Below are positions 20,780 to 55,607 of a stretch of 64,000 nt of DNA, piece by piece. Position 1 is the stretch's first letter; each line of letters begins with the position of its first letter. The stretch lies in contig CAYJDM010000001.1 in NCBI GenBank assembly GCA_964368945.1, forward strand, positions 106,849 to 170,848, given 5' to 3'. The translations under genes were made by a program, and so were the position numbers. Below the pieces are notes generated by a model, which worked only from the letters and a program-made list of their open reading frames with translations, was not told the DNA's origin and did no database searches. The stretch comes from an uncultured Candidatus Saccharibacteria bacterium (GTDB taxonomy: Bacteria > Patescibacteriota > Minisyncoccia > Phycocordibacterales > CAIZLB01).

Positions 20780-20928
20780 ACATTACCATATATGGGGGTA
20801 TGGCACAATTATTTGGGTGTTTTAGGGGCTTTTTCACAGAAAAAACGAAAAGCGCATGCTATCATGTCCCCAGATTGCGGCACTATAAAGTTCCTGCATT
20901 CCTACCGAAATCCAGACAATCCATACCA

Positions 20929-22098
20929 ATGAAATCGATCTTTGCAAAAAAAGCGGGCTCCGTGCCCGCATTCTCTCTCTGTCTCTTTGGGCTGCTCGGC
21001 AATGCGCATGCTCAAGCCTCGAGTATCGTTATCTCCGAAGCTCCTGAAAGGATGGTATCGCAGAACTTTCGCGTCGATTCCGGAGGTTTTCCTCTGGTTC
21101 CTGTCGCTGCATTCACTGTCACATCATCAGGCGATGAAAATATCATGGCAAATTTCGATGTCGACATTGTCGGCTCGGCTTCCGTCAGGGTCATCTATCT
21201 CTTCGAAGGCGGCAATCAGATCACTGCCGGCGGCGCATCTGATCAGCATAGCGACAATCTCTTCATGGGGGTCAGAATGATGAATGGCGATAAGCGCACA
21301 TTCACCGTCATGGTGCAGTTCTTCAACGATGTGGCGACCGTTAGTCCGCTGGCTCAGGCTCGTGTGACGAATTTCATGTATTATAATTCGAATTTTCATC
21401 TCACGAGCGCTTCGGGCACGATAGTCGGACCCACGATGCATCTTTTCGACAAATGCGCGCAATGGTCTGTCGCGATGCCTACATCGATAGCGATCGATAC
21501 GTCCGCATCGAAGGTTACTGCATCATTTCCGCTCAATGCCAAAGCCTTGGCGGGAGCTGTCGTCATGCCGATCGCATCCGACTTCAGCGTCAAATTCGTC
21601 GATATCGAAACAGGAGAACTGCATGCGGCGACTGAAGTCTTGGTCGCTGTCAGTCCGCCTGGCCAGATTGCCGATGGATCTGTCAAACCGGTAACCGTAA
21701 CCGCTTCATTGTCGGCGCCAAGCATCAAGCCCGATGGCTTGTATCATGCGCGGATCGAAGCTATCAAATGGACGATTGCACAAAAGCAGACGATCCAGAC
21801 ATGGGGACTTGACCGCATGGTCACAGGCATAACGAATGCTGTTCCCTCGGAAAAAAACAGCATTGGGATTATCGGCTCAAGGCTCAGGCCCGTGGATCAG
21901 ACTCTTGTAATGGCATTCACCGCTCCGCATCAGAATTTCTTCGTCGAATCTTCCGCCGATCTTTCTGGTTGGACGGAGTTCAGTCCGCCGATTGCGGTCA
22001 GCGAGATCGCCGGCTTGCCCAATGATGCGAAAGCATACCGAATGGTATTGCCATTGCAGCAGGAGCGTCGATTCTATCGGGCCACGCTGCGGCCTTAG
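20929..22098 (+). CDS. secreted hypothetical protein, paralogous to the 49040 gene
   Basis: Signal peptide MKSIFAKKAGSVPAFSLCLFGLLGNAHA; beta-rich S/T/V/A composition; C-terminus DLSGWTEF...RFYRATLRP; the track ORF begins upstream at 20752 but the Met at 20929 gives a canonical signal peptide. Confidence 0.55.
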   Translation: MKSIFAKKAGSVPAFSLCLFGLLGNAHAQASSIVISEAPERMVSQNFRVDSGGFPLVPVAAFTVTSSGDENIMANFDVDIVGSASVRVIYLFEGGNQITAGGASDQHSDNLFMGVRMMNGDKRTFTVMVQFFNDVATVSPLAQARVTNFMYYNSNFHLTSASGTIVGPTMHLFDKCAQWSVAMPTSIAIDTSASKVTASFPLNAKALAGAVVMPIASDFSVKFVDIETGELHAATEVLVAVSPPGQIADGSVKPVTVTASLSAPSIKPDGLYHARIEAIKWTIAQKQTIQTWGLDRMVTGITNAVPSEKNSIGIIGSRLRPVDQTLVMAFTAPHQNFFVESSADLSGWTEFSPPIAVSEIAGLPNDAKAYRMVLPLQQERRFYRATLRP

Positions 22099-31046: not shown

Positions 31047-31078
31047 GCCGACCCGTGACAGGGGTCGGCTTTTTTTTA
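31047..31078 (+). terminator. intrinsic terminator
   Basis: Stem gccgaccc/ggggtcggc with a gtgaca loop, followed by T8. Confidence 0.65.
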
Positions 31079-31136
31079 TATAAAAATTCACAAACAAATA
31101 AACATCGGACGGAAAATACGCTATACTTAAAATCTC

Positions 31137-32981
31137 ATGAGCTCCTCAGCAATACAAACAGAGACTGGCGCATCGAAGACAGATGCAAAGAAGCCAGCAA
31201 GTCCTCTAAAAAATCTAATACGATCGATCCGTCTCATCAATCAGCATGATAAGCGGTATTTGATCGTTGAAATGAGCCTGCGCCTTGTCACCGGCGTTCT
31301 GCCTTTCGTACTCGTCTGGTATTCCGCATTGTTCATCAATAAAGTCACGACTGGGACTTTCACCAGCGTATTCGATCCGGCCCTCTTATCGGTGGTCATC
31401 ATATATATAACCTTGCCATTCTTCAGCGAGACTGCGCGAGTGATACAGCAGACATTCCGTCAGAAGTTCTATATATTCTTTCGGCAATGGTTCGATATTT
31501 CTTTGATGGAAAAAAAGACCCTCGTCGATATCCAAACATATGAAAACCCCGCATTCAGGGACAGGATGGCAAAAGTGGGCGAAAATTCATATAAGCTGAA
31601 CAATACTGTCGATTGGTTTTTCGATATTTGGGAATATGGAATCAAGGCGATTATCGCTATTTCCATCGTCGTCGCATACAAATGGTGGGTCGCTCTCATC
31701 CTGCTCGCGGCATTGCTGCCGGATATGTATGTGGAAAGAAAATACGGCCATCGCATATGGGGAATTTGGGATGCAAAGGCATCGATCAAGCGTCGATACT
31801 ATGAAGCGTCATCGCATTTCGAAAAGGCATCTGATCTGATCGAGATGAAAGTGTCTGGGACGAAGAATTTTCTCATAAGGACCCTACAATCCCTCGCTTC
31901 TCAGTTCAATAATGAGAGCAGAAAGAATGAGAATAAGCGAATGTATCTCAAGATCGGCACGACGGTTGTGATTTCTGCTGCAATGGCAGCCATCGTGCTC
32001 ATCATTATGAGCGATTTGATCAGCGGCTTGCTTGCCATCGGTACATTCGTCTTCATCCTGAGCAGTATGGGCGGATTGCGGGCGGATCTCAGCGAAATGC
32101 TACGCGGCGTCAGCACATTGAGCGCGGACAATCTTTTCGTCAATGATATCCATGAATTCCTCGCCACTGAAAATGTCCTCAAGAACGGAACGATCGCTCT
32201 CGATAGTCATACGCCCGGCATAGAATTCGAGGATGTCGCGTTTGCATATCCTGGCTCTGAGACAAGTACCGGCAAGAGCATCTTCGAAAAGATCAATTTC
32301 ATGATCAAGCCAGGCGAAAAGATCGCCATCGTAGGCGTAAATGGAGCAGGGAAGACGACGCTGACGAAATTGCTCATGCGTTTCTATGATCCTACGGGCG
32401 GAAGCGTGCGAATCGGTGGTCATGATGCTCGCACTATAGAGATTTCTTCATATTATAAAAAAATCGGCTATCTCTCACAGGAATATGACAAGTTCAAGAT
32501 GATTACCAAGGACGCTATTGGAATTGGCGATACATCAGGTCCGACTGATCTACCTCGAGTCATCGAAGCGGCAAAACGCGCCGGCGCCCATGAATTCATT
32601 CAGGAATGGCCGCATGCCTACGATACCCAGCTCGGAAATGAATTCGAAGGCGGCATACAGCCTTCTATCGGCCAGTGGCAAAAGCTGGCACTCGCGCGGC
32701 TCTTCTATCGCGATCCGCAGATCTGGATTCTCGATGAGCCAACCGCATCGATCGATTCTGTCGCGGAAATGGAGATATTCTCGGAGCTCGAGAATCTGCC
32801 TGATGACAAGACCGTCATATTGATTTCGCATCGCTTCAATACCGTAAAAAATGCCGACAAAATCATGGTCGTCGAGGACGGCCAGATCAAGGAATTCGGC
32901 AATCATGCGCATTTGATGGCAAAGGAGAATGGCGTATATCGCAAATTGTTCACATCGCAGAAGGATTCGTTTGCTGATTAG
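31137..32981 (+). CDS. ABC transporter, fused permease/ATP-binding protein (exporter type)
   Basis: N-terminal 6-TM domain; Walker A GVNGAGKTT; degenerate signature SIGQWQKLALAR; Walker B/D-loop ILDEPTASID. Confidence 0.85.
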   Translation: MSSSAIQTETGASKTDAKKPASPLKNLIRSIRLINQHDKRYLIVEMSLRLVTGVLPFVLVWYSALFINKVTTGTFTSVFDPALLSVVIIYITLPFFSETARVIQQTFRQKFYIFFRQWFDISLMEKKTLVDIQTYENPAFRDRMAKVGENSYKLNNTVDWFFDIWEYGIKAIIAISIVVAYKWWVALILLAALLPDMYVERKYGHRIWGIWDAKASIKRRYYEASSHFEKASDLIEMKVSGTKNFLIRTLQSLASQFNNESRKNENKRMYLKIGTTVVISAAMAAIVLIIMSDLISGLLAIGTFVFILSSMGGLRADLSEMLRGVSTLSADNLFVNDIHEFLATENVLKNGTIALDSHTPGIEFEDVAFAYPGSETSTGKSIFEKINFMIKPGEKIAIVGVNGAGKTTLTKLLMRFYDPTGGSVRIGGHDARTIEISSYYKKIGYLSQEYDKFKMITKDAIGIGDTSGPTDLPRVIEAAKRAGAHEFIQEWPHAYDTQLGNEFEGGIQPSIGQWQKLALARLFYRDPQIWILDEPTASIDSVAEMEIFSELENLPDDKTVILISHRFNTVKNADKIMVVEDGQIKEFGNHAHLMAKENGVYRKLFTSQKDSFAD

Positions 32982-33021: not shown

Positions 33022-34329
33022 ATGAAATCAACTTTCAGCACATTTCAACTCGTAGTACTCATCTTCTTTATCTTCATCGGAATCGCCGGCGTCGTAGTAT
33101 TCGCTGGATTCGGCGGCACGAGCAAAGATCATGTTCCGGAAGCCGTTATTTGGGGTACGGTGCCGAATGCAACAGTCAATGAAGTGGTGCGCTTGATCAA
33201 TATTGAGAAAACAGTCATCAAGGTGACATATCAGCAGATCGCTCCCGAAAGCTTTCGCTCTACATTCGTGAATGCGCTAGCTGAAGGCAAGGGTCCTGAT
33301 ATCGTTCTCCTTTCCGATGATCTACTGTATGCAGAAGGCAATAAGCTCAGCCCTGTGCCGTATACCGTTTTTACCCAGAGAGATTATGCGGATACATATA
33401 TAAATGCGGCTGATCAGTTCATGGTCTCAAATGGAGTTCTCGGCGTGCCATTCAGCGTCGATCCTATCGCCATGTATTGGAATCGCAGCATATTTGCTAC
33501 GGAAGGAATCGCGAGCCCTCCTCGAACCTGGGATGAATTGCAGAAATTGGTGCCGAAGCTCACGCGACTCAATGATAGCAAGGGGATAGTGCGAAGCGGC
33601 GTGGCTCTCGGAGAAGTTCGAAATATTTCCGATGCAAAGGAAATCCTCGCTTCAATGCTCATGCAGAAGGGCAATACGATAACCGCTATCGATCCTCAGA
33701 CTAATGCAATCGTTTCGACGCTCGATAGGGCCGGTGCTGACAATTCATTCACTGCCGCTCAGGTTATCAGCCTCTATACATCATTCGCTGATCCTACCAG
33801 CCCTAATTATTCTTGGAGCCGATCGATGCCTGATTCTCGCAAGGCATTTCTGTCTGGCGATGTAGGCATGTATTTCGGCTATGTCAGCGATTTCGAGGCT
33901 CTTCGCCGAGAGAACCCGAACCTCGACTTCGATGTCGCGCCCATACCGCAATTCGATGATCGATTCAGCGCCACATATGGAAGGATTACGGCTTTCTCTG
34001 TCACGCGCAGGGTTACGAATGCCATGGACGCATATAATGTAATAGCAAAAATGACATCGGCCGCAGCTCAGAAGAATTGGGTGGAGCTGACAAAGATGCC
34101 GCCCGTGCGCAAGGATTTGCTCCAGGAAACGCCTAGCGACAAATATCTATCGACATTCTATCGAGCTGCCATCCAGACCCAGACTTGGTTCGATCCGGAT
34201 CCTGCATATTCGTCTACGATCTTCCGCGACATGGTAGAATCTATTACATCAGGCAAGACGCAGCCGTCGGATGCCATCAGCAATGCCAAGCAGCGACTCG
34301 ATATGCTCCTGCAAGGCATAAAATCATAA
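33022..34329 (+). CDS. extracellular solute-binding protein (family 1-like), membrane anchored
   Basis: N-terminal TM/signal anchor (start at the Met at 33022), then a roughly 400-aa alpha/beta domain with periplasmic-binding-protein-like pattern; weak call. Confidence 0.45.
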   Translation: MKSTFSTFQLVVLIFFIFIGIAGVVVFAGFGGTSKDHVPEAVIWGTVPNATVNEVVRLINIEKTVIKVTYQQIAPESFRSTFVNALAEGKGPDIVLLSDDLLYAEGNKLSPVPYTVFTQRDYADTYINAADQFMVSNGVLGVPFSVDPIAMYWNRSIFATEGIASPPRTWDELQKLVPKLTRLNDSKGIVRSGVALGEVRNISDAKEILASMLMQKGNTITAIDPQTNAIVSTLDRAGADNSFTAAQVISLYTSFADPTSPNYSWSRSMPDSRKAFLSGDVGMYFGYVSDFEALRRENPNLDFDVAPIPQFDDRFSATYGRITAFSVTRRVTNAMDAYNVIAKMTSAAAQKNWVELTKMPPVRKDLLQETPSDKYLSTFYRAAIQTQTWFDPDPAYSSTIFRDMVESITSGKTQPSDAISNAKQRLDMLLQGIKS

Positions 34330-34346
34330 TCAATAATCCGAAATAC

Positions 34347-34787
34347 ATGAAATTCGCAATCAAATTCAGACTAACATCAGCCGCGGCACGATTAGGGATG
34401 CTCGCGATCGTATTCGGATTCGCACTCTCGCTATTCGTACCGCACCATGATGCATTGGCTCAGTCAGGAGTTCTCAAGACCAAATTCACCATTCCTGCAT
34501 ATTGCAATCAGCCCCAGACTGAATGCGGGTGGGTGCAGCTGGTGCAGCTCGGAACAGAAATCCTTTCATTCGGCGTATATATCGCCATTCTCGGAGCGAC
34601 AGCGGTTATCGTCCTTGCTGGATGGAAAATCCTGACAGCTGGCGGCGATGAAGGGGCGGTCAAGACGGGCAAGAAAATGCTTTGGGCATCTATCGTCGGA
34701 ATCATCGTGACCATGTCGGCATATATGCTCGTTCAATTCGTTCTGACGAAGCTCGGCGTGATATCCGGAATTCGTTTGTTCATTTAG
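34347..34787 (+). CDS. VirB2/TrbC-like T4SS-pilin-domain protein, paralog A
   Basis: Signal peptide, a short Cys-containing segment, then a two-helix module (LAGWKILTAGGDEGAVKTGKKMLWASIVGIIVTMSAYMLVQFVL) shared with the next five genes. Confidence 0.55.
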   Translation: MKFAIKFRLTSAAARLGMLAIVFGFALSLFVPHHDALAQSGVLKTKFTIPAYCNQPQTECGWVQLVQLGTEILSFGVYIAILGATAVIVLAGWKILTAGGDEGAVKTGKKMLWASIVGIIVTMSAYMLVQFVLTKLGVISGIRLFI

Positions 34788-34825
34788 TTTGCAGTTTGAT
34801 ATACTTATTAAAAAAGCGCACAATC

Positions 34826-35827
34826 ATGGCCAATATAACCAAAACAAAACAGGAGAGGGTACCAATCTTATTCGCGCTCGGTCTTGTTCTGGTCTTGGCA
34901 TTGATTGCGATCACGCTTGTCGCTCCGAACGCAAAGCTGGCATTCAGAGGCGTCATTCTGGATGGAAAAGCACAAGTTCCTGATGCATGGAAAGTTGGCG
35001 CTACGGCCGATGCTCCGTTGGGCTCAATCGATAATCCGCTGCCTTACGACGGTGACAATAGTTTTTTTGACGAATCTGTATATGTGATCAATCCGGATGC
35101 CGATCAATTCAGCTCTGTAAACCTGGGCGATTATTTCAGCAATGAAGGCTATGTCGATGGGCCATTGTCAAATTCTTCCGTGTCATTATCTTCCTCCAGG
35201 AATACCTATTATGATCCTTTCAATACGTATTTTTCTGGCGGCAATTCGTCAATGAGCTCAACGGAGAACTTTTACGCTGGATCAGCCGTCACCACTCCTT
35301 CTACTGCTTCTCAGGCGCAATCAGCGGCAAATTCCGTGGGCAATGCGGTCAATTCGGCTTTTGGCTCGGTATTCGGCAATGGCACTGGCGGCGGGGCGGC
35401 TGGATCTGCTGGCACGGCGGGCACTCAGTCAACTGCCGGATCGGCTGTTTTGGCAGGAAATACTTCGGGCAATTTCTCGGCGCCAACGTCTGCAGCTGGA
35501 AAAAATACCGGCGTTAATAAAGCAGCGGCAACTGCGGTGAATTGTACCGGAACGGCATGCCAGTTCCAGAATCCTCTAGGAACGAAAAACAGCTCGCTGG
35601 ATATTTTTCTCAATAGCATCCTCGATGTCATCATCCTCATCGGAGGAATAGTCGTGGTAATCATGATCATCCTTGCTGGCCTCAAATATGTCACGGCTCA
35701 AGGAGATGAAAGCAAGATCGAATCTGCGCATAAGCAGCTTACATGGACGGTTGTCGGCGCAGGAATCCTCCTTGGAGCGAAAGTGATCGCTCTGGTCATC
35801 CAAAATACAGTCAAGGCTTTAACATAA
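34826..35827 (+). CDS. VirB2/TrbC-like pilin-domain protein with long low-complexity ectodomain, paralog B
   Basis: N-terminal signal anchor; roughly 230-aa S/G/A/T/N-rich region; C-terminal pilin module LAGLKYVTAQGDESKIESAHKQLTWTVVGAGILLGAKVIALVIQNTV. Confidence 0.55.
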   Translation: MANITKTKQERVPILFALGLVLVLALIAITLVAPNAKLAFRGVILDGKAQVPDAWKVGATADAPLGSIDNPLPYDGDNSFFDESVYVINPDADQFSSVNLGDYFSNEGYVDGPLSNSSVSLSSSRNTYYDPFNTYFSGGNSSMSSTENFYAGSAVTTPSTASQAQSAANSVGNAVNSAFGSVFGNGTGGGAAGSAGTAGTQSTAGSAVLAGNTSGNFSAPTSAAGKNTGVNKAAATAVNCTGTACQFQNPLGTKNSSLDIFLNSILDVIILIGGIVVVIMIILAGLKYVTAQGDESKIESAHKQLTWTVVGAGILLGAKVIALVIQNTVKALT

Positions 35828-35850
35828 AATAACCCCTTAACCACAAACCC

Positions 35851-36126
35851 ATGTCATCAAATAGCTTCGAAGGATTGGTAGGAAAGATCTATAGCATGCT
35901 GTCGAGCCTCGTGCCGCTCATTATCGGGCTTACCGTCGTCGTCTTCCTCTGGGGCATCTTTCAGCTCGTGCGAAGCAATAGCGAGGATACACGCGCTGAT
36001 GCCATCAAGGTCATCACATTCGGCGTAGTGGCGCTTTTCATCATGGTATCGGTATGGGGCTTCGTCGCCTTGCTCAATAGCACTATTTTCGGAGGGAGCC
36101 AGATCTATATCCCACAGCTCCGATAG
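35851..36126 (+). CDS. VirB2/TrbC-like pilin-domain protein, paralog C
   Basis: 91 aa; two TM helices around the loop RSNSEDTRADAIK; motif FLWGIF ... FGVVALFIMVSVWG. Confidence 0.55.
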   Translation: MSSNSFEGLVGKIYSMLSSLVPLIIGLTVVVFLWGIFQLVRSNSEDTRADAIKVITFGVVALFIMVSVWGFVALLNSTIFGGSQIYIPQLR

Positions 36127-36141
36127 TTTTAATAAAAAAAC

Positions 36142-36426
36142 ATGAATACGCTCCAATCGCTCATCCTCCAGTTCGCGAATTTTCTCAATAGGCTGGTGCC
36201 ATTCATCATCGCGCTTACTCTGCTCGTCTTCCTATGGAGCATATTCAAGCTCGTTTTGACCAGCAATGAGGATGCGCGCAAGGAAGCGATCAAGCTGATC
36301 ACATTCGGAGTCGTAGCCTTATTCGTGATGGTCTCGGTATGGGGCTTGGTCAATATCCTTGTATCCACATTGAAGCTGCAGAACAATGCGAATATTCAAC
36401 AAGGCCCTGGCGTTCCTCGTTTTTAG
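36142..36426 (+). CDS. VirB2/TrbC-like pilin-domain protein, paralog D
   Basis: 94 aa; very similar to paralog C (FLWSIFKLVLTSNEDARKEAIKLITFGVVALFVMVSVWG). Confidence 0.55.
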   Translation: MNTLQSLILQFANFLNRLVPFIIALTLLVFLWSIFKLVLTSNEDARKEAIKLITFGVVALFVMVSVWGLVNILVSTLKLQNNANIQQGPGVPRF

Positions 36427-36513
36427 TGTATAATTATCTGGTGACTTGTTTAGAGTCTATTCAAGACTCAGTGGTCGCTTATCAATTTAAATAAACAACA
36501 ACTACTTTCATTT

Positions 36514-36909
36514 ATGAAAAAAGCGTCATCAAAGGCCGGATTGCTTGGCCTGACTCTCGCCTTGGTACTTCTTCCGAATTTCGTATCGGCACAGAGCGTC
36601 GGACTAGGAGGCTTGCTCGGACTTCTCGCGCAGGCGAATGATTTGATCAACCGATTGATTCCGTTCATCATCGCCCTTACCATCCTTATCTTCCTTTGGG
36701 GAGTCTTCAAATTCGTCTTCTCAGGAGGAGATGGAGAGCAGCGAAAGGAGGCTCAGGGGTATATGATCTGGGGTATCATCGCTTTATTCGTCATGGTTTC
36801 AGTATGGGGCTTGGTAAACATCCTCGTTCGAAGCTTCAACCTCGACAATACGGCGCCCGCAGCGCCAGCGCTTCCTTCTCCGGCTGGAACATTCGTTCCG
36901 ACTCGATAG
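36514..36909 (+). CDS. VirB2/TrbC-like pilin-domain protein with cleavable signal peptide, paralog E
   Basis: 131 aa; signal peptide MKKASSKAGLLGLTLALVLLPNFVSAQS; pilin module FLWGVFKFVFSGGDGEQRKEAQGYMIWGIIALFVMVSVWG; proline-rich tail. Confidence 0.55.
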   Translation: MKKASSKAGLLGLTLALVLLPNFVSAQSVGLGGLLGLLAQANDLINRLIPFIIALTILIFLWGVFKFVFSGGDGEQRKEAQGYMIWGIIALFVMVSVWGLVNILVRSFNLDNTAPAAPALPSPAGTFVPTR

Positions 36910-36923
36910 TTCAAACTTAGAAT

Positions 36924-37220
36924 ATGCAAACCAATAGCACTGCCATCGATTTCATCCATAAGGTGAATTCGGTCATCGTCAATCCGCTCATACGCCTCGT
37001 ATTTCTCGTAGCACTCGTTTACTTCCTCTGGGGAGTATTCGGATATGTGCGCAATAGCGACAGCGAGGAGGCGCGCGCTACCGGACGAAGGCATATGCTT
37101 TGGGGCATCGTGGGAATGTTCGTCATGATCTCGGTATTCGCAATCATGGCATTCATCCTCAATACCGTCGGTGTTTCTCCTACGACGGGACAGATCAATA
37201 CGGTCATTCCGCTGCAGTAG
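36924..37220 (+). CDS. VirB2/TrbC-like pilin-domain protein, paralog F
   Basis: 98 aa; FLWGVFGYVRNSDSEEARATGRRHMLWGIVGMFVMISVFA. Confidence 0.5.
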   Translation: MQTNSTAIDFIHKVNSVIVNPLIRLVFLVALVYFLWGVFGYVRNSDSEEARATGRRHMLWGIVGMFVMISVFAIMAFILNTVGVSPTTGQINTVIPLQ

Positions 37221-37354
37221 GGCGGGAAGGGGCCTTAGGCGGCCGCCCAGGGCAATACAGCGCCATATCGGGCTCTCTACGGACGATAGCAAGCAAAAGA
37301 AAAGGCATTCCGCGAGGGGTGCTTTTTCTCTTTATTTGATATACTGAATACACT

Positions 37355-38212
37355 ATGAGCAAAGAAATCCTGTCCATGAATCTAGGAATTGAAGAAAATC
37401 CAGCAGATTCAGCTGAAGCTTCTGCTAATGCAGATATCGATGCTTTGCCAAGCATGCCGGTTTTTGAGCATGGCAGCGTAGGAGTTGATGATACCGAAGG
37501 CCTTCCTGACGATCTCCTTTCTTCTAAAGAAAAAAGAGCAAGAGAGATCCATCATATTAGAGAGGCCCTCGAAAAGGCATCCAGCCATGAACCGATCGAT
37601 GAGGAAAAAAAGGCTGCGATAAAGGCGAATGTGAATATGATCATGCCCAAGCTCGGCCTTCCACCCATGAAAACGCTCAAGGTACCAGATGAGCAGTTCG
37701 GCGAGACGGAACCGCTTAGAATGAATGGTCCGGTGAATATCCTCATGGTAGATAATGAGCCTCTTACCATAATAGACTTGATCACGCCGCTGAGCGTCGT
37801 AAGCGAGGGTCATCTGGATGTTTTTATCCAGACAAGGGAAAGCGCGCGAGAAGTTGCCGAGAAGATAGCAGGCATGGACCCGCAGCCGGATATCATCGTG
37901 ATGGATTATGATCTCGCCGGCATAATGGGGGATGAGGTTATCGCCGAGCTCAAGGGCCTTGGCGTGAAATCTCATATTGTCGGAAGATCGGGCAATGAGG
38001 CAGCGATCCTCGACTTCTTGAAATACAATGTGCCGATTGCATTCTATAAGCCTCGAGATTGCGATATCGATGAGGAGATGGCCTTTCTCGCTGAATTGTA
38101 TGATGATAGAAATGCGAAGTTTCTTGATCCGAAAATCGCAGAAGGCCTTGTATATGATGAGCCTATCGAAGGCCGTCCTAAGGAAGGGGACGAAGAGAAG
38201 GTTGGGGAATAA
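37355..38212 (+). CDS. orphan response-regulator receiver-domain protein with acidic N-terminal extension
   Basis: C-terminal CheY-like REC pattern (ILMVDNEP ... DIIVMDYDLAGIMGDEVIAELK ... PIAFYKP); no output domain seen. Confidence 0.5.
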   Translation: MSKEILSMNLGIEENPADSAEASANADIDALPSMPVFEHGSVGVDDTEGLPDDLLSSKEKRAREIHHIREALEKASSHEPIDEEKKAAIKANVNMIMPKLGLPPMKTLKVPDEQFGETEPLRMNGPVNILMVDNEPLTIIDLITPLSVVSEGHLDVFIQTRESAREVAEKIAGMDPQPDIIVMDYDLAGIMGDEVIAELKGLGVKSHIVGRSGNEAAILDFLKYNVPIAFYKPRDCDIDEEMAFLAELYDDRNAKFLDPKIAEGLVYDEPIEGRPKEGDEEKVGE

Positions 38213-39488: not shown

Positions 39489-39610
39489 TGTATTAAATGA
39501 TATGGGTAATTTGATATAAGTGTATCATCGGCCGCGAATAAAAGTAATTTTCGTGGCGCTTTTTCTTAATGAAAAATTAATATTGCCATCAAACGCTTCT
39601 TGCGCACTTG

Positions 39611-39693
39611 TGCCCGGGGTGGGACTCGAACCCACAAAGCATTGCTGCTACGACATTTTAAGTGTCGCGAGTTTACCATTTCTCCACCTGGGC
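39611..39693 (-). tRNA. tRNA-Leu (anticodon TAA), class II
   Basis: Reverse complement gcccaggtggagaaatggtaaactcgcgacactTAAaatgtcg + long variable arm + gtgggttcgagtcccaccccgggca; one A-C mismatch in the acceptor stem. Confidence 0.8.
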
Positions 39694-40169
39694 ATGATAT
39701 TTCTCCCTCTATGGGTCGATTTCAGGCTATGACAATTGGGACATAATATCCTGAGATTGGACAGGCGATTGTCATTTCTGTCGCCATTTATATGATCCAA
39801 TTCAACTGGGATTCTACCATCTTCAGATGCCTTTGCCCAGCCGCACTCCTCGCATCTTTTTTCTTTCAATCCGGCGTCGAATAGCTTGTTTTTAAGCTTA
39901 TGGCTTTGGTATGTCGAATTTTGCACTAAAACATCCTCGAGAGAATATTTCATGCCTCCCTTACGATTCGGCCCACAATTGGCTGCTCGGCCCAGAAAAT
40001 GACTTATATCGAGCCCGTGTTCAGCGATTAGTCTTTTTATGTGTGCGTAATTCCCACCGGCTGGAATTAAGCCGAGCGTCTCGATTACTTGGCGGTAACT
40101 GTGTGAATTTTTTACAGCATCCCACAGTTGCTCGATCTTCCATTTGTATACGCCGCGTTTTTTCTTCAT
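39648..40169 (-). CDS. HNH endonuclease
   Basis: CEECGW ... ELDHINGDRNDNRLSNLRILCPNCHS (HNH/zinc-finger motif); start taken at MKKKRGVYKW; the last roughly 15 codons run through the 5' half of tRNA-Leu(TAA). Confidence 0.65.
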   Translation of the reverse strand: MKKKRGVYKWKIEQLWDAVKNSHSYRQVIETLGLIPAGGNYAHIKRLIAEHGLDISHFLGRAANCGPNRKGGMKYSLEDVLVQNSTYQSHKLKNKLFDAGLKEKRCEECGWAKASEDGRIPVELDHINGDRNDNRLSNLRILCPNCHSLKSTHRGRNIMPRWRNGKLATLKMS

Positions 40170-40215
40170 TAACCGAATTATAATCCAACCAGTATGAAGA
40201 AAAAATGAATTTTTG

Positions 40216-40288
40216 AGGTGTAGGCCGGGGTCGAACCGGCGCATAACAGTTTTGCAAACTGCCGCGTTAACCACTTCGCCACTACACC
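40216..40288 (-). tRNA. tRNA-Cys (anticodon GCA)
   Basis: Reverse complement ggtgtagtggcgaagtggttaacgcggcagtttGCAaaactgttatgcgccggttcgaccccggcctacacct; discriminator U as expected for Cys. Confidence 0.85.
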
Positions 40289-49039: not shown

Positions 49040-50803
49040 ATGAACACCAAAAACCTGCTCATCGCCCTCGTGGCCATGATGGGCCTCTTAGGGATCCGGT
49101 CCGTACGGGCTGATCCCTCGCTCTCCGTGAGCGAAACATCAGCGCAACAAGCTGTTGCGCCTCGCAATGTCTGGATTCGCCCGCTCTTCGGTGCGCGCAA
49201 TACAGCGGTCTATCGGTTCGACGCGAAGAGCGCGAACGGCGCCTGCAAGGCGAACGAAGTCAAGCTGAGCATACCGCCAACGGCGCGTATTCCTGAACAG
49301 GTCTACGTATACGATGGCGGCGTTCAACTGGCGTCGGGACTTCCCGATCAAGCGAATCGAACTGTCAGCCTTAACGGGTTCTCACTCGACATTCCGCAAG
49401 GTGCCACAAAGACATTGACCATCCTGGCTGACTATCCGCGGACCGACTATGTCGGCCCCTACGGAGAGTACGCCCAGGTCGAACTCGTTTCTGTCGGTTA
49501 TGTGACGGCAACGAATGTCGCCGCAACGGCAACACCATCTTCAAAAATGGTCAGCGCCCAGCAGCGGCTCTTTCGCCCGATGTCCGCAAACATTGGCGTC
49601 GATGAGACCCCGACTATCATAGAGGAAAGGAACTCAAGCGGAGTCCTGACCTCAATGTACGGACTCTTCGTAGTCACGTTCAAGCCGGAAGGCGGCAGCC
49701 TGAGGTCTCCCCAAGCCGAGGATTTCGTTATTCTCGGTCAGGTCGGTGGCGATGAAGTGCCATGCCAAGTAAGGGTATACGGAAGTGTTTCAGAGGTTCA
49801 GAGTGACTCGACGTACTACGCCTATGTAGGCGGTAGCATTCCGCTGCGCATTGAAGGTGCAAACCATCAGCGCGCCGGCGCAGTCAGCTTCCGAATCGCA
49901 CAGGTTACCTGGGAAAATCATCCCAATTCACCTGCCATATCGACTCAGCAGACCTGGGGTCTGGAGAGTCTGACCACGGCAACGACGGCAGTTCTGCCGA
50001 AGCCGGATTCTGAATCATCGGTAACTGCTGGTCGGGTAGGAAAGGTGAGTACGAAGGTTTGGGATGAAATCACAAGTGCCTTGAAGCCCGTTGACGGTTT
50101 CAAGGGGCAAGTGGTTTCCGAAGGCGGACAGATTCTGATCTGCCCTACGAATCCCAACCAGAAGAAATATCTGGTATTCCCGACGACCCATCCGCTAGGC
50201 GGACAGATCGCTGAGGTTGACGTTGTCGTAACACCGACCACGATGACCCCCTCGGTCCGCGCCCCAGAAGACCTGTCTGTCGACTCGCGCGAGACGCTGG
50301 TGGAATATCCGCTGACCTCTCTCGTTAGGATTCCAACGTCGCAACAGACGATGCTGGCAAATTTCGAGGTTACTCTCGGAGGCCTCCACGTACAAGGGAA
50401 GGCGATCCGCACGGGTCCGCTTACCGCAAGCCTGCAGTTCTATTGGGATTGCGAAAACGGCGTCTCGAACGCTCCCGGTGCAAACCTGGACCGTCTGGAT
50501 CTGGCTCCCGGATATACGACCGGCAATATCGAGTCTCGTCCGATGCGCTTTGATCTCGGGATTGGGCAGGTGTCGAAAGACTCCAGCTCTTTCCGTCTGA
50601 ATGTCAAAGGTGCTCCAGGAGCGTACTCCGTGTACACTTCCAAGGATCTCGCATCAGGCTGGGTTCCTGCAGACTTCGAATACGGCCCGATGCAATCGGC
50701 CGCAGTCGGAGGCGCTACGATGACCGGCGAATTGCGGATTCCGTCCGCATCGCTGACAACGCCCGAAGCGCCGACCCGCTTCTTTCGATTGGAGGTGCGA
50801 TGA
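49040..50803 (+). CDS. secreted hypothetical protein, GC-rich, paralogous to the 20929 gene
   Basis: Signal peptide MNTKNLLIALVAMMGLLGIRSVRA; 587 aa, beta-rich; GC near 58 percent and CGC/CGG arginine codons, unlike the CGA-rich neighbours; C-terminus DLASGWVPADFEY...RFFRLEVR. Confidence 0.55.
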   Translation: MNTKNLLIALVAMMGLLGIRSVRADPSLSVSETSAQQAVAPRNVWIRPLFGARNTAVYRFDAKSANGACKANEVKLSIPPTARIPEQVYVYDGGVQLASGLPDQANRTVSLNGFSLDIPQGATKTLTILADYPRTDYVGPYGEYAQVELVSVGYVTATNVAATATPSSKMVSAQQRLFRPMSANIGVDETPTIIEERNSSGVLTSMYGLFVVTFKPEGGSLRSPQAEDFVILGQVGGDEVPCQVRVYGSVSEVQSDSTYYAYVGGSIPLRIEGANHQRAGAVSFRIAQVTWENHPNSPAISTQQTWGLESLTTATTAVLPKPDSESSVTAGRVGKVSTKVWDEITSALKPVDGFKGQVVSEGGQILICPTNPNQKKYLVFPTTHPLGGQIAEVDVVVTPTTMTPSVRAPEDLSVDSRETLVEYPLTSLVRIPTSQQTMLANFEVTLGGLHVQGKAIRTGPLTASLQFYWDCENGVSNAPGANLDRLDLAPGYTTGNIESRPMRFDLGIGQVSKDSSSFRLNVKGAPGAYSVYTSKDLASGWVPADFEYGPMQSAAVGGATMTGELRIPSASLTTPEAPTRFFRLEVR

Positions 50804-54323: not shown

Positions 54324-55055
54324 ATGGAACCAAATACACAACCAATTAAAAAAAACACGCTGGCAATGCCAATTGCCATTGTTATCGCAGGGGCACTCAT
54401 TGCTAGCGCGGTGATATACCGTGGCGGCAGTGTGCCTACGGCTGCGGACATGGCAAATCAGCCGCAACAGCGGGCGGCACAGCAAACAGGTGATCTTGAA
54501 CAAATGACACCAGTTACGTCTAAAGACCATATCCGAGGTGATGTGAATGCGCCGGTAAAAATAGTGGAGTATTCAGATACCGAATGTCCATTCTGCAAGG
54601 TGTTCCATACCAATATGAAAGAAATAATGAATACCTATGGCAAAGACGGAAAAGTAGCATGGGTATACCGACACTTTCCGATCGATCAGCGTCATCCTAA
54701 GGCACGAAAAGAGGCTGTCGCTTTTGAATGTGCGAATGAGTTGGGAGGAAACGACAAGTTCTGGGAATATGCCGATCGCCTCTACGAAGTCACTCCGGCA
54801 AACAATGGACTTGACCTCGCAGAGTTACCAAAGATTGCGGAGCATGTCGGCTTAGACAAGGCAAAATTCAACACCTGTCTCTCAAGTACGAAATACGATA
54901 AGCACATCCAGGATGAAGTCGAGAATGCACAGGCAACCGGTGGCAACGGAACGCCATGGAGCATTGTGGTCGGCAAAGACGGGAAGAAGTATCCATTGTC
55001 GGGAGCGCAACCAATATCGGCCATTAAACAGTTGATTGATCTTGCGTCAAAATAA
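54324..55055 (+). CDS. membrane-anchored DsbA-like thiol:disulfide oxidoreductase
   Basis: N-terminal TM; thioredoxin-fold active site VEYSDTECPFCKVFH; second conserved Cys region. Confidence 0.7.
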   Translation: MEPNTQPIKKNTLAMPIAIVIAGALIASAVIYRGGSVPTAADMANQPQQRAAQQTGDLEQMTPVTSKDHIRGDVNAPVKIVEYSDTECPFCKVFHTNMKEIMNTYGKDGKVAWVYRHFPIDQRHPKARKEAVAFECANELGGNDKFWEYADRLYEVTPANNGLDLAELPKIAEHVGLDKAKFNTCLSSTKYDKHIQDEVENAQATGGNGTPWSIVVGKDGKKYPLSGAQPISAIKQLIDLASK

Positions 55056-55057
55056 CT

Positions 55058-55603
55058 ATGATTCCTAATGCCTTACAAAAAGTATTCCGGAAACCAGGCC
55101 TTGTGGTTCTTGCACTTCTCGTAAGTGCGTCGGTGTTTGTGTTTGCCGTCTGGCTTCCAAATATCCGACTGGTTGCGGGCATAGTCAGCTCACCTGATGT
55201 ACCTTTTGTAAGCAAGATTCAATTGCCCCTCAGTCTCCTGGGTTCTATTGGAACAAATTTCACACCACTCTCCGCCACTTACACGATTGTGATCGCCATT
55301 CTCTTTGGAGTGTACATTGCAATGATCACTTACTTCCTGAAGCGTCGGATCAAAGAGGTTGGAAAAAGTGGAGTGGCAACTGGATTCCTGGGTATCGCAA
55401 GCGGAGTGTTGGGGGTTGGATGTGCCGCCTGCGGTTCATTTCTTCTCACAAGCTTAACGCTTGTCGGTGCTGGAGGAGTATTGACGTTTCTGCCACTAGG
55501 AGGCAGTGAGTTCGGAATCATTGGAGCTATCCTGCTTGCCGTGGCAGTCTACATGACTGCAAAAAAGATTGTTGATCCCCAAGTATGCAAAGTCGAAAAT
55601 TAA
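55058..55603 (+). CDS. polytopic membrane protein with intramembrane CxxC
   Basis: 181 aa, about 4 TM helices; GVGCAACGSF lies within a hydrophobic segment. Confidence 0.4.
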   Translation: MIPNALQKVFRKPGLVVLALLVSASVFVFAVWLPNIRLVAGIVSSPDVPFVSKIQLPLSLLGSIGTNFTPLSATYTIVIAILFGVYIAMITYFLKRRIKEVGKSGVATGFLGIASGVLGVGCAACGSFLLTSLTLVGAGGVLTFLPLGGSEFGIIGAILLAVAVYMTAKKIVDPQVCKVEN

Positions 55604-55607
55604 ATTT

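What the first reader, a model, noticed from the sequence alone, without database searches (positions are those of the whole stretch)
34347..38212. Tandem array of six VirB2/TrbC-like (T4SS-pilin-type) paralogs with no secretion ATPase in sight
Six consecutive co-oriented genes (34347, 34826, 35851, 36142, 36514, 36924) each carry the same roughly 60-aa two-helix module: a hydrophobic helix ending in (A/L)GW or LWG, a short charged loop with G-D/E-E/G, a basic residue, then a second helix ...(I/L)(T/W)(F/W)G(I/V)(I/V)... This is the architecture of conjugative pilins of the VirB2/TrbC type and of the so-called T4SS pilin family abundant in Gram-positive and small-genome lineages. The N-termini vary: plain signal anchors, a cleavable signal peptide, and in one member a roughly 230-aa S/G/T/N-rich ectodomain. 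The window holds no VirB4, VirD4, VirB6 or relaxase gene. The array is instead flanked upstream by a fused ABC exporter and a solute-binding protein, and downstream by an orphan receiver-domain protein. Multiple divergent pilin paralogs with no cognate machinery nearby suggest either a distributed T4SS/competence-like apparatus or a repurposed surface-filament or antigenic-variation system.
Basis: partly seen in the sequence, partly recalled or inferred. Interest (0 to 1): 0.8.

Follow-up and report, generated by a model that had tools for sequence, protein, structure and literature searches.

The report
Patescibacterial VirB2-like pilin operon
The six small membrane-protein genes are a real, strongly conserved operon of "type IV secretion pilin" paralogs typical of ultra-small Patescibacteria (here the Paceibacteria/Parcubacteria lineage); arrays of this kind were already described in 2023-2025, so this is a new example of a known feature.

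Summary
Six co-oriented genes (34347-37220) each carry a two-helix membrane hairpin. All six match Pfam PF18895 (T4SS_pilin): five above the curated cut-off, gene A 0.5 bit below it. No other copy, VirB4/VirD4 ATPase, VirB6 or relaxase was found in the 64 kb.

This kind of array is already published. Wang 2023 reported six essential pilins in Southlakia epibionticum. Quinonero-Coronel 2025 found 441 arrays of 2-11 pilins (mean identity 25%, maximum 54%) and found pilins away from virB4 in about 40% of assemblies that have both. The window array has mean identity 27% and maximum 54%.

- The array is a core-genome operon. All 79 related Paceibacteria-type species genomes examined carry it, with subfamily order A-B-(C/D-like)-E-F, usually between gyrA and infB. 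None has a candidate ATPase within 10 kb.
- Orthologs are under purifying selection, and E is as conserved as GyrA. This argues against antigenic variation.
- The constant partner is a membrane-anchored MalE-like binding protein directly upstream (62-66 of 68 loci). The ABC exporter and the receiver-like gene are lineage-specific.

Homology to solved or classical VirB2 pilins could not be shown by my own tests. Function as a VirB4-driven heteromeric pilus is inferred.

The parts
31047..31069 (+). Terminator-like G+C-rich hairpin followed by a T-run. It marks the likely upstream boundary of the transcription unit; a promoter-like site lies at 31099-31127.
   Evidence: Consensus scan, (8 pairs, 7 of them G-C, followed by T8). 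This is a pattern match only.
31137..32981 (+). Fused TMD-NBD ABC exporter-type protein (614 aa). It is probably co-transcribed here, but it is a lineage-specific insertion between gyrA and the binding-protein gene and not a conserved part of the system.
   Evidence: ABC_tran 99 bits. It is present only in the window's close relatives and in L031 among 79 loci; elsewhere the position holds a methyltransferase or other genes, or is empty.
33022..34329 (+). Membrane-anchored MalE/sugar-type solute-binding protein (435 aa; the longest ORF starts at 32929). It is the constant upstream partner of the pilin array, ending 17 bp before gene A.
   Evidence: SBP_bac_8 78 bits and SBP_bac_1 72 bits. Best solved relative is maltose-binding protein 1urd, E 4.5e-14. 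It lies directly upstream on the same strand in 62 of 68 loci, with a median gap of 2.5 bp, and nearby in 4 more. Start coordinate from the gene calls on the identical contig.
34347..34787 (+). Pilin paralog A (146 aa). It has a signal peptide with an ALA-QS site, a Cys pair (C-x8-C), then the two-helix hairpin, and no C-terminal tail.
   Evidence: PF18895 at 26.1 bits, 0.5 bit below the cut-off. Own-HMM E 8e-25. Orthologs are 84-89% identical in the core. It is always first in the array.
34826..35827 (+). Pilin paralog B (333 aa). It has an N-terminal membrane anchor, a hypervariable disordered ectodomain (about residues 35-254), an invariant CxGxxCQFxNPLG motif, and then a highly conserved hairpin.
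   Evidence: PF18895 37.6 bits; TrbC PF04956 21.6 bits, sub-threshold. AF2 pLDDT below 50 for residues 35-254. In the ortholog alignment the hairpin and the Cys motif are invariant while the linker is unalignable and highly variable in length (orthologs 204-354 aa). It is always second in the array.
35851..36126 (+). Pilin paralog C (91 aa). It has no signal peptide here (orthologs in L005 and L009 have one) and a C-terminal tail ending IPQLR.
   Evidence: PF18895 27.6 bits. Orthologs are 81-92% identical in the core. It is 52% identical to D.
36142..36426 (+). Pilin paralog D (94 aa). It has no signal peptide and a C-terminal tail ending GPGVPRF.
   Evidence: PF18895 28.3 bits. Orthologs are 73-79% identical in the core. 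It is 54% identical to E.
36427..36513 (+). Intergenic leader of gene E. It holds an extended -10-like box TGTATAAT (36427-34) followed by a hairpin (36440-36479). This is a likely internal promoter and 5' leader or operator for E and F.
   Evidence: Sequence. Hairpin free energy -14.4 kcal/mol, z -2.7. The gap before the E ortholog has a median of 103 bp against 12 bp for other intra-array gaps in 79 loci. A GAC...GTC stem recurs in about 23 relatives, but with only one covarying pair.
36514..36909 (+). Pilin paralog E (131 aa). It has a cleavable signal peptide (VSA-QS), the hairpin, and a Pro-rich tail ending FVPTR. It is the most conserved member and the candidate major subunit.
   Evidence: PF18895 33.5 bits. 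Orthologs are 94-96% identical in the core and 87-88% overall, equal to GyrA. dN is 0.085 against 0.087 for GyrA. There are 544 homologs at E no worse than 1e-3. AF2 gives a hairpin of helices 31-69 and 74-108 with pLDDT about 87.
36924..37220 (+). Pilin paralog F (98 aa). It has no signal peptide and a tail ending VIPLQ, and it is always last in the array.
   Evidence: PF18895 29.2 bits. NCBIfam NF045849 32.1 bits, below its cut-off of 40. Orthologs are 70-78% identical in the core. Position.
37298..37329 (+). Terminator-like hairpin (14 pairs) with a T-rich tail. It is the likely end of the operon and separates it from the receiver-like gene at 37355.
   Evidence: Consensus scan. This is a pattern match only.

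Best explanation
The six genes are the Paceibacteria (Parcubacteria-type Patescibacteria) version of the 'VirB2-like' T4SS_pilin (PF18895) array. This is a vertically inherited core-genome operon, not a mobile element.

Shown:
- Each product is a helical-hairpin membrane protein. A and E have cleavable signal peptides, B has an uncleaved anchor plus a disordered variable ectodomain, and C, D and F have none.
- The paralogs fall into old, separately conserved subfamilies in a fixed order A-B-(C/D-like)-E-F.
- All are under purifying selection, and E is as conserved as GyrA.
- A membrane-anchored MalE-like binding protein is almost always encoded immediately upstream.
- No ATPase is linked to the array.

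Inferred:
- The hairpins insert into the cytoplasmic membrane with the charged loop facing the cytoplasm.
- A VirB4-dependent, monoderm (MPF-FATA-like) T4SS encoded elsewhere, near dnaA in most Paceibacteria according to the literature, extracts and polymerises them into a heteromeric surface filament or conduit at the contact with the host cell.
- E is the major subunit. It has its own promoter-like leader.
- A, B, C, D and F are non-redundant minor or specialised subunits. B displays a fast-evolving ectodomain.

By analogy with Southlakia epibionticum, where six such pilins are each essential, the structure probably serves the epibiotic lifestyle (adhesion, or transfer of proteins, DNA or nutrients) rather than conjugation.
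For: Family: PF18895 hits on all six genes; exactly six copies in the window; two-TM topology; AF2 hairpin for E.

Known kind: Southlakia genes SEML1_0014-0019 are six PF18895 pilins, all scored essential (PMC10633639). PMC12102498 reports 441 arrays of 2-11 pilins with mean identity 25% and maximum 54%; the window array has mean 27% and maximum 54%.

Core operon: the same gene order S1-MBL-GyrA-...-SBP-pilins-...-RbfA-IF2-...-ClpB appears in relatives. In 79 species-representative genomes, all Paceibacteria/Parcubacteria-type MAGs, every locus has 3-8 co-oriented pilins, most often 6.

Fixed subfamily order.

Purifying selection: orthologs are 70-96% identical in the core against 15-54% for paralogs. 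E is 87-88% identical overall, the same as GyrA at 87%. dN/dS is 0.04-0.31.

Binding-protein linkage: 62 of 68 loci have it immediately upstream and 4 more have it nearby. Insertions occur between gyrA and the binding-protein gene in many loci, but only once between that gene and the first pilin.

No linked ATPase: no unannotated ORF of 400 aa or more with a Walker A motif lies within 10 kb in any locus.

Leader of E.

Expression: T4SS pilins are among the most highly expressed genes of unknown function in Paceibacteria that parasitise methanogens (PMC10936435).

VirB4 prevalence: 2,417 of 3,035 Patescibacteria assemblies.
Against: No VirB4, VirB6 or VirD4 was demonstrated for this genome, because the rest of the contig could not be read.

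Homology to experimentally characterised pilins is not established by my tests:
- Profiles of the E and B families match no pilin among the PDB chains (E none at E up to 10; B five spurious low-complexity matches).
- hhalign against eight genuine VirB2/TrbC proteins gives probabilities of 1.8% and 0.4%.
- Pfam TrbC is sub-threshold, and only for B.

No pilus made of these proteins has been seen in any Patescibacterium; the literature speaks only of a 'potential to elaborate conjugative pili' (PMC12857230).

dS is saturated, so dN/dS is only qualitative. The promoter and terminator assignments are pattern matches.
Confidence: 0.6

Rival explanations
1. The proteins are membrane-embedded structural parts, not an extended pilus. 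The six hairpins would stay in the cytoplasmic membrane as stoichiometric components of a channel or stalk, belonging to the T4SS or to another envelope complex. The mycoplasma ICE 'pilin-like' proteins of wall-less monoderms would be the parallel.
For: The best curated non-Pfam match for five of the six is NCBIfam NF045849 'Mbov_0395 family pilin-like conjugal transfer protein' of mycoplasma ICEs (E 7e-8 to 4e-5, all below the cut-off). This fits the MPF-FATA ancestry of patescibacterial VirB4. Gram-positive T4SSs generally lack pili. Six separately conserved, non-interchangeable subunits suit a fixed-stoichiometry complex as well as a filament.
Against: All NF045849 scores are below the curated cut-off. 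E has its own leader and is very highly conserved. Pilin genes are very highly expressed in Paceibacteria. Both points fit a bulk polymer subunit better than a channel component. Cleavable signal peptides with an A-x-A-Q site, as in VirB2, also fit a pilin.
Confidence: 0.2
2. The binding protein and the hairpin proteins form an uptake or sensing apparatus that works independently of any T4SS, for example by capturing host-derived sugars. The 'pilin' name would then be misleading.
For: The binding-protein and pilin genes are tightly and almost universally adjacent, with near-zero intergenic gaps. The adjacency persists where gyrA synteny is broken (L081). No ATPase is linked in 79 loci. The binding protein is MalE-like, yet no MalFG-type permease genes are seen in the window or next to the array in related loci. 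Patescibacteria depend on imported nutrients (PMC11665869).
Against: In Saccharimonadia the homologous six-pilin array sits inside the T4SS cluster next to a VirB6-like gene and near VirB4, with no binding protein reported beside it. Adjacency inside a long conserved housekeeping block is weaker evidence than co-occurrence across rearranged contexts, and only a few loci are rearranged. No known transporter uses two-helix hairpins of this type.
Confidence: 0.1
3. The array is an antigenic-variation or host-range cassette. On this view the paralogs diversify rapidly so that alternative surface variants can be displayed, as proposed for Bartonella and Anaplasma VirB2 paralogs and suggested for Patescibacteria.
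For: Identity between paralogs is low. B carries a hypervariable ectodomain and has the highest dN (0.42-0.60). The idea is raised in PMC12102498.
Against: Every paralog has a conserved positional ortholog (70-96% core identity), and the subfamily order is fixed across 79 species. dN/dS is below 0.32 for all six. There are no near-identical DNA tracts or conversion signatures; the best is 73% over 162 nt. All six Southlakia pilins are individually essential, so they are not interchangeable. Only the B linker varies, and it is disordered.
Confidence: 0.05
4. The genes are holin-like or other prophage membrane proteins, or small hydrophobic ORFs that resemble each other by chance.
For: The proteins are small, have two TM helices and occur in tandem. 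A phage-like region exists elsewhere in the window (59.7-63.6 kb).
Against: No holin or functionally annotated PHROG family matches; there are two weak hits (E 0.002-0.004) to families of unknown function. The array lies in a conserved housekeeping block about 22 kb from the phage-like region, with no change in composition. Its GC content equals that of the surrounding genome. Orthologs occur in 79 species genomes in the same chromosomal context. The HMM significance excludes chance.
Confidence: 0.01

Closest known systems
Essential six-pilin array of the Southlakia epibionticum ML1 T4SS locus (SEML1_0014-0019; Wang et al. 2023, Cell, PMC10633639)
   Same: Both have six tandem, co-oriented PF18895 proteins of about 100-185 aa that diverge in sequence but share structure. 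In both, one or two members also touch the TrbC/VirB2 model weakly. Both are patescibacterial and chromosomal, and no relaxase was recognised (in the T4SS cluster there; in the 64-kb window here).
   Different: In Southlakia the array is inside the T4SS cluster near dnaA, next to a VirB6-like gene and a few genes from VirB4. Here, and in 79 Paceibacteria-type genomes, it lies between gyrA and infB with no ATPase within 10 kb, and it is preceded by a MalE-like binding protein. One member here carries a 220-residue disordered ectodomain. One-to-one orthology between the two sets of six was not tested.
Patescibacteria VirB2-like pilin arrays surveyed by Quinonero-Coronel et al. 2025 (Microb Genom, PMC12102498)
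   Same: The survey defines arrays as tandem PF18895 or PF04956 hits, 2-11 genes long, with mean identity 25% and maximum 54%. Pilins are often unlinked to virB4 (813 of the 1,948 assemblies that have both). The window array matches on all of these counts.
   Different: [quoted passage not shown] Its main text contains none of the terms gyrA, ABC, solute or substrate-binding (term search). It proposes antigenic or host-range variation, which the ortholog conservation found here does not favour.
VirB2/TrbC/TraA conjugative pilins of diderm T4SSs (Pfam PF04956; for example Agrobacterium VirB2)
   Same: Both are small proteins with a long signal peptide, an A-x-A-Q cleavage motif (A and E here; invariant in the VirB2 set) and two hydrophobic helices joined by a short polar or basic loop. 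B scores 21.6 bits on PF04956.
   Different: There is no significant profile-profile similarity and no match to any solved pilin sequence. The genes are not next to virB1, virB3 or virB4. Three members lack a signal peptide. There are six obligatory paralogs instead of one major pilin. The organism is a monoderm.
Mycoplasma ICE 'Mbov_0395 family pilin-like conjugal transfer protein' (NCBIfam NF045849)
   Same: This is the best curated non-Pfam match for five of the six (E 7e-8 to 4e-5, aligned over nearly the whole 80-residue model). It is a two-helix protein of an MPF-FATA-class system in a monoderm, the class from which patescibacterial VirB4 derives.
   Different: All scores are below the family cut-off of 40 bits (best 32.1). 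The genes here are chromosomal core genes, not ICE-borne, and occur as six paralogs rather than one.

Membership tests
Pfam PF18895 T4SS_pilin | Whole-protein HMM score at or above the gathering cut-off of 26.6 bits | tested here: met
   B 37.6, C 27.6, D 28.3, E 33.5 and F 29.2 bits. A scores 26.1 bits, 0.5 bit short, and is accepted as a divergent member because it aligns to the others and its ortholog on contig L010 carries an unmarked (E at most 1e-5) precomputed PF18895 hit; the L005 and L009 orthologs are marked weak.
Pfam PF18895 T4SS_pilin | Two hydrophobic helices joined by a short charged loop (helical hairpin of about 60-70 residues) | tested here: met
   Hydropathy scan. AF2 model of E has helices 31-69 and 74-108. 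AF2 model of B has helices 256-293 and 295-332.
Patescibacteria VirB2-like pilin array (PMC12102498; PMC10633639) | Two or more PF18895/PF04956 genes in tandem, or separated by one non-pilin gene, with low identity between members | tested here: met
   Six consecutive genes with mean identity 27% and maximum 54%. Published values are 25% and 54%.
Patescibacteria VirB2-like pilin array (PMC12102498; PMC10633639) | The host genome is a Patescibacterium | tested here: met
   Closest homologs and syntenic loci are Taylorbacteria, Paceibacterota or Parcubacteria MAGs. The LOOT RNA family is present in the window (its restriction to this lineage is recalled, not checked here). The gene content is typical of a reduced genome.
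Patescibacteria VirB2-like pilin array (PMC12102498; PMC10633639) | A VirB4-based T4SS is encoded in the same genome | not testable with these tools
   Only 64 kb of the source contig is available, and none of the large ORFs is VirB4 or VirD4. The rest of the related long contigs could not be fetched. The literature reports VirB4 in 80% of Patescibacteria assemblies.
Patescibacteria VirB2-like pilin array (PMC12102498; PMC10633639) | Required for epibiotic growth (essential in Tn-seq) | not testable with these tools
   Shown only for S. epibionticum. It needs genetics in a cultivated Paceibacterium.
TrbC/VirB2 pilin (Pfam PF04956) | HMM score at or above the gathering cut-off of 27.9 bits | tested here: not met
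   Only B hits, at 21.6 bits and E 2.5e-4. Two B orthologs carry precomputed PF04956 hits.
TrbC/VirB2 pilin (Pfam PF04956) | Significant profile-profile or sequence similarity to experimentally characterised or solved pilins | tested here: not met
   hhalign against eight annotated VirB2/TrbC proteins gives probabilities of 1.8% (E family) and 0.4% (B family). No pilin is matched among PDB sequences (E profile none; B profile only spurious low-complexity matches).
TrbC/VirB2 pilin (Pfam PF04956) | Fold match to solved conjugative pilins | tested here: inconclusive
TrbC/VirB2 pilin (Pfam PF04956) | Encoded beside virB1, virB3 and virB4 (mating-pair-formation operon) | tested here: not met
   The neighbours are gyrA, an ABC exporter, a binding protein and a receiver-like gene. 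There is no ATPase within 10 kb in 79 related loci. Genuine virB2 genes sit between virB1 and virB3.
NCBIfam NF045849 Mbov_0395 pilin-like conjugal transfer protein (mycoplasma ICE) | Score at or above the curated cut-off of 40 bits | tested here: not met
   The best score is F at 32.1 bits. B to E score 23-26 bits and A scores 10 bits. This indicates a related family, not membership.
Type IV pilins (T4P, class III signal peptide, PF07963 N_methyl) | N-terminal prepilin-peptidase motif (G/FTLIE-type) followed by a single hydrophobic helix | tested here: not met
   No N_methyl hit. The sequences show Sec-type signal peptides or none, and two helices.
Phage holins | Match to a holin family and a lysis-cassette context | tested here: not met
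   No PHROG holin match. The context is a conserved housekeeping block.

The most novel reading that the evidence does not exclude
The conserved unit in Paceibacteria is not a pilin array alone. It is an operon joining a membrane-anchored MalE-like binding protein to five or six fixed-order hairpin subunits, physically unlinked from the T4SS ATPases. The most novel reading still allowed is that the binding protein is a functional part of the filament or conduit, for example a receptor that docks on host glycans or feeds captured host metabolites into it. That would be a previously undescribed nutrient-capture or attachment organelle built from VirB2-like subunits, possibly working without a classical T4SS.
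Probability: 0.1. Interest if true: 0.8.

Novelty: new member of a known kind. Interest (0 to 1): 0.3.

Why it matters
How Patescibacteria, a large share of bacterial diversity, extract what they need from host cells is an open question. Their T4SS and its unusual pilins are essential in the one species tested, but their function is unknown. This locus does not reveal a new kind of system.

The comparative analysis adds constraints that could guide experiments:
- In Paceibacteria the pilins form an ancient fixed-order set of non-redundant subunits under purifying selection, which argues against antigenic variation.
- One member, E, looks like the major subunit and has its own leader.
- One member, B, carries a fast-evolving disordered ectodomain.
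- A MalE-like binding protein is co-encoded almost without exception.

If the link to the binding protein is functional, it would point to a role in sugar or host-glycan recognition.

Tried and rejected
(1) Sequence search of the E-family and B-family profiles against all PDB chains: no pilin was matched (E none; B five spurious low-complexity matches).

(2) Profile-profile comparison with eight genuine VirB2/TrbC proteins fetched from plasmids: not significant. The only register-consistent similarity is the A-x-A-Q signal-peptidase site.

(4) Holin or prophage origin: no PHROG support.

(5) Search for VirB4, VirD4 or VirB6 in the window. All large ORFs were annotated by Pfam. The three large unannotated ORFs were inspected and none qualifies: two are signal-peptide proteins and one is a soluble, charged, coiled-coil-like protein with a single chance Walker-A-like match, and none has a polytopic membrane profile.

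(6) Search for ATPases near the array in 79 related loci. The nine largest unexplained ORFs look like DnaE, ThrRS, PolA or surface proteins by eye. No ORF of 400 aa or more has a Walker A motif.

(7) Locating VirB4 elsewhere in the source genome or in the long related contigs was not possible.

(8) The ABC exporter as a system component: rejected because it is absent from most related loci.

(9) The receiver-like gene as a system component: rejected. Its Pfam score is sub-threshold, it is absent from most relatives, and a terminator-like hairpin separates it from gene F.

(10) Recent duplication or gene conversion between paralogs: none found.

(11) Covariation support for the hairpin in the E leader: weak, with one covarying pair. 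A DNA operator is an equally good reading.

Full report
1. OBSERVATION

- A 34347-34787 (146 aa)
- B 34826-35827 (333 aa)
- C 35851-36126 (91 aa)
- D 36142-36426 (94 aa)
- E 36514-36909 (131 aa)
- F 36924-37220 (98 aa)

A Kyte-Doolittle scan finds two adjacent hydrophobic helices in each protein. A, B and E have an extra N-terminal hydrophobic segment. The alignment shows the shared module: helix, then LWG or AGW, a charged loop, and a second helix.

All six match Pfam PF18895 'T4SS_pilin'. B, C, D, E and F score 27.6-37.6 bits, above the gathering cut-off of 26.6. A scores 26.1 bits.

An HMM built from the six cores finds only these six among 868 six-frame ORFs of the window. The six score E 1e-25 to 1e-36 and the next best scores E 0.38. 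Pairwise core identity is 16-54%, mean 27%. C, D and E form a closer group (37-54%), and A and B a looser one (27%).

2. WHAT ELSE IS IN THE WINDOW

The window looks like a stretch of a reduced Patescibacteria chromosome. It carries ValRS, TsaD, FtsZ, FtsA, S1, GyrA, IF-2, RbfA, ClpB, a class-V aminotransferase, signal peptidase I and nine tRNAs.

No large ORF has a VirB4, VirD4, VirB6 or relaxase domain. Of the three large unannotated ORFs, two have N-terminal signal peptides and the third is a soluble, charged, coiled-coil-like protein with one chance Walker-A-like match. None has a polytopic membrane profile.

Upstream of the array lie a fused ABC exporter (31137-32981) and a solute-binding protein (33022-34329). 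Downstream lies a 285-aa protein with only a sub-threshold receiver-domain hit of 20.7 bits against a cut-off of 30.2.

Terminator-like hairpins at 31047-31069 and 37298-37329 bracket the ABC, binding-protein and six pilin genes. This suggests one transcription unit that excludes the receiver-like gene. These are pattern matches only.

3. THE KIND OF FEATURE IS ALREADY DESCRIBED

A full-text search for the Pfam name led to Quinonero-Coronel et al. 2025 (PMC12102498). Their findings:
- VirB4 is present in 2,417 of 3,035 Patescibacteria assemblies and forms a clade nested in the monoderm MPF-FATA class.
- VirB2-like pilins (PF18895 or PF04956) occur in 1,948 VirB4-positive assemblies, but near virB4 in only 1,135 of them.

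The window array has mean identity 27% and maximum 54%, almost the same.

Wang et al. 2023 (PMC10633639) showed by Tn-seq that the T4SS cluster of Southlakia epibionticum is essential for epibiotic growth. [quoted passage not shown] Their supplementary tables list SEML1_0014-0019 as six consecutive PF18895 proteins, all scored essential. They lie next to a VirB6-like gene and a few genes from VirB4.

[quoted passage not shown] It notes that the function of the system is unknown (PMC12857230; PMC11665869).

The finding is thus a new member of a known kind.

4. COMPARATIVE ANALYSIS

(a) Lineage. Homologs of E are annotated Taylorbacteria, Parcubacteria, Nomurabacteria or Pacebacteria. A scan of one genome per GTDB species with the E-family alignment gave 399 confirmed relatives. 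The 79 loci kept are Paceibacterota/Parcubacteria-type MAGs, and the best is a Taylorbacteria MAG at 77%.

(b) Core-genome operon. Every one of the 79 loci has a co-oriented run of pilin genes. Among the 68 loci with a complete upstream flank, 32 have six genes, 21 have five, 11 have four, 3 have seven and 1 has three. The usual context is S1 - MBL-fold protein - GyrA - (variable) - binding protein - pilins - (variable) - RbfA - IF-2 - DUF4446 - aminotransferase - ClpB, as in the window.

(c) No linked ATPase. Among 233 otherwise unexplained ORFs in these loci, none of 400 aa or more has a Walker A motif. The nine largest look by eye like DnaE, ThrRS, PolA or surface proteins. In this lineage the array is consistently separate from the T4SS ATPases, at least within 10 kb on either side.

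(d) Fixed subfamily order. Each pilin was classified with subfamily HMMs. The result is the pattern A-B-(one to three C/D/E-like)-E-F in nearly all loci. Margins are large for B, the penultimate E and the terminal F.

(e) Purifying selection. Positional orthologs in four related contigs share the following core identities, against 15-54% between paralogs:

| Paralog | Core identity to orthologs |
|---|---|
| A | 84-89% |
| B | 74-87% |
| C | 81-92% |
| D | 73-79% |
| E | 94-96% |
| F | 70-78% |

Over the whole protein, E is 87-88% identical where GyrA is 87% and IF-2 is 86-87%. B is only 44-55% identical. Nei-Gojobori dN/dS is 0.04-0.31 for all six. dS is saturated, so this is qualitative. E has the same dN as GyrA, 0.085 against 0.087. 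At DNA level the best paralog match is 73% over 162 nt, between C and D. There is therefore no recent duplication or gene conversion.

(f) B's ectodomain. In eleven orthologs the N-terminal anchor, a CxGxxCQFxNPLG motif and the hairpin are invariant or nearly so. The intervening segment cannot be aligned and varies greatly in length; the eleven proteins range from 204 to 354 aa. AlphaFold gives pLDDT below 50 for residues 35-254. In more distant genomes B is short (112-190 aa), and a long insertion sometimes sits in the third gene instead.

(g) The constant partner. A gene for a MalE/sugar-type binding protein with an N-terminal membrane anchor lies immediately upstream of the first pilin. It is on the same strand in 62 of 68 loci, with a median gap of 2.5 bp. 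It is close by in 4 more loci, and only two loci lack it. Extra genes occur between gyrA and the binding-protein gene in about a dozen loci (an ABC exporter here and in L031; a methyltransferase in the two loci with Pfam-annotated gene calls; unidentified ORFs elsewhere). An insertion between the binding-protein gene and the first pilin occurs only once, in L078. In L081 the pair persists although gyrA synteny is lost. The ABC exporter is therefore a lineage-specific insertion. The receiver-like gene is absent from most relatives.

(h) A separate leader for E. The gap before the E ortholog has a median of 103 bp, against 12 bp for the other intra-array gaps. In the window this gap starts with TGTATAAT (36427-34), followed by a hairpin at 36440-36479 with free energy -14.4 kcal/mol and z -2.7. 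A GAC...GTC stem just downstream of a TATAAT-like box recurs in about 23 relatives. Its pairs are mostly invariant, with one covarying pair. It may be an mRNA 5' hairpin or a DNA operator.

Combined with E's conservation, this suggests that E is the abundant major subunit. Independent metatranscriptomes of Paceibacteria that parasitise methanogens list T4SS pilins among the most highly expressed genes of unknown function (PMC10936435).

5. HOW FAR THE 'VirB2' LABEL IS SUPPORTED

Membership of PF18895 is met. Homology to classical or solved pilins is not demonstrated by my own tests:
- The TrbC/VirB2 model PF04956 is hit only by B, and below threshold at 21.6 bits.
- Profiles of the E and B families match no pilin among the PDB chains; E finds nothing and B only five spurious low-complexity matches.
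- hhalign against eight annotated VirB2/TrbC proteins retrieved from plasmids gives probabilities of 1.8% and 0.4%.
- Foldseek finds nothing at E below 0.001.

Some resemblances are suggestive only. A and E have Sec signal peptides ending A-x-A|Q-S, and the A-x-A-Q motif is invariant in the VirB2 set. The predicted topology matches that of VirB2: N-terminus out, loop in, C-terminus out.

The best curated non-Pfam match is the mycoplasma ICE 'Mbov_0395 pilin-like conjugal transfer protein' (NF045849). E-values go down to 7e-8, but all scores are below the cut-off. The match is still interesting because patescibacterial VirB4 descends from the MPF-FATA class, which includes Tenericutes.

Two architectural classes are visible directly in the sequences. 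A and B have a Cys pair before helix 1 and no C-terminal tail. C to F have a tail of about 20 residues ending in a conserved [IV]P-x(1-2)-[RFQ] motif (IPQLR, VPRF, VPTR, IPLQ).

6. MECHANISM

Shown: the family, the topology, the copy number, the fixed order, purifying selection, the linkage to the binding protein and the absence of a linked ATPase.

Inferred, at about 0.6 confidence: the hairpins are inserted by Sec or YidC. A VirB4-type T4SS encoded elsewhere extracts and polymerises them into a heteromeric filament or conduit at the host contact. E is the major subunit and the others are specialised. B displays a fast-evolving disordered ectodomain.

Rivals:
- Membrane-resident channel components rather than a pilus (0.2).
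- A T4SS-independent uptake or sensing apparatus coupled to the binding protein (0.1).
- An antigenic-variation cassette (0.05). Ortholog conservation, fixed order, the lack of conversion tracts and the individual essentiality of the Southlakia paralogs all argue against it.
- Holin or prophage genes (0.01). There is no PHROG support and the context is housekeeping.

7. VERDICT

The arrangement is not unusual for this phylum and has been published, so interest is modest.

Three points may not have been reported and would be worth a focused comparative study: the near-universal binding-protein and pilin operon of Paceibacteria, its fixed subfamily order and position away from virB4, and the separate leader of E. 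I did not find them in the papers I could search (term search of PMC12102498; library search).

Whether this genome encodes VirB4 could not be tested with the available tools.

Noticed in passing
window 59704-63574: A phage-like or mobile region sits at the 3' end of the window. It holds a large serine recombinase (59704-61026, minus strand), a LOOT RNA (RF03000, 82.8 bits, 61187-61314, plus strand) and a terminase-large-subunit-like ORF (62105-63574, minus strand). GC content falls from about 0.49 to 0.42-0.46 from roughly 54 kb onward.
   Followed up: partly
window 36427-36513, and the equivalent gap in loci L023-L101: A long intergenic gap is conserved upstream of the E-type pilin only (median 103 bp against 12 bp). 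It carries a TATAAT-like box followed by a GAC...GTC hairpin or inverted repeat. Many relatives also have a TCCACA(G) motif about 30 nt upstream of the box; the window does not. This may be an internal promoter with a 5' stabilising hairpin or an operator. Covariation support is weak.
   Followed up: partly
window 33022-34329, and 62-66 of 68 related loci: A membrane-anchored MalE-like solute-binding protein is encoded immediately upstream of the pilin array almost universally. No MalFG-type permease genes are visible in the window or the flanks. Its role is unknown, and I did not find the linkage mentioned in the papers searched.
   Followed up: partly
window 49040-50803 (+) and 20752-22098 (+): Two large secreted proteins with signal peptides and no Pfam match look like paralogs. 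They share a TWGL(E/D) motif and a C-terminal RF(F/Y)R motif. They may be surface proteins of unknown function.
   Followed up: no
window 39648-40274 (-), with tRNA-Leu 39610-39693 and tRNA-Cys 40215-40288: A 208-aa ORF with an HNH-like Cys/His-rich C-terminus lies between two tRNA genes and overlaps them as the longest ORF. Related loci have homologs of this ORF or LAGLIDADG-like ORFs in the same variable region between the pilin array and rbfA. This points to a hotspot for homing-endonuclease-type insertions.
   Followed up: no
window 37355-38212 (+): A stand-alone receiver-like protein. It has an acidic, probably disordered N-terminal half and a sub-threshold Response_reg match with recognisable MVDN...MDYD...KP motifs. 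It is found only in the closest relatives (for example L043), and a terminator-like hairpin separates it from the pilin operon.
   Followed up: partly
window 54324-57334 (+): A cluster of envelope-folding genes: two DsbA-like thioredoxins (54324-55055 and 56038-56694) and a SurA_N-like chaperone (56708-57334). They may be relevant to the conserved Cys pairs in pilins A and B.
   Followed up: no
loci L057, L062, L066, L067, L080 (third gene of the array): In several more distant Paceibacteria the long insertion (242-364 aa) sits in the third, E-like pilin rather than in B, and B is short there. The variable ectodomain appears to have been acquired independently by different paralogs.
   Followed up: no
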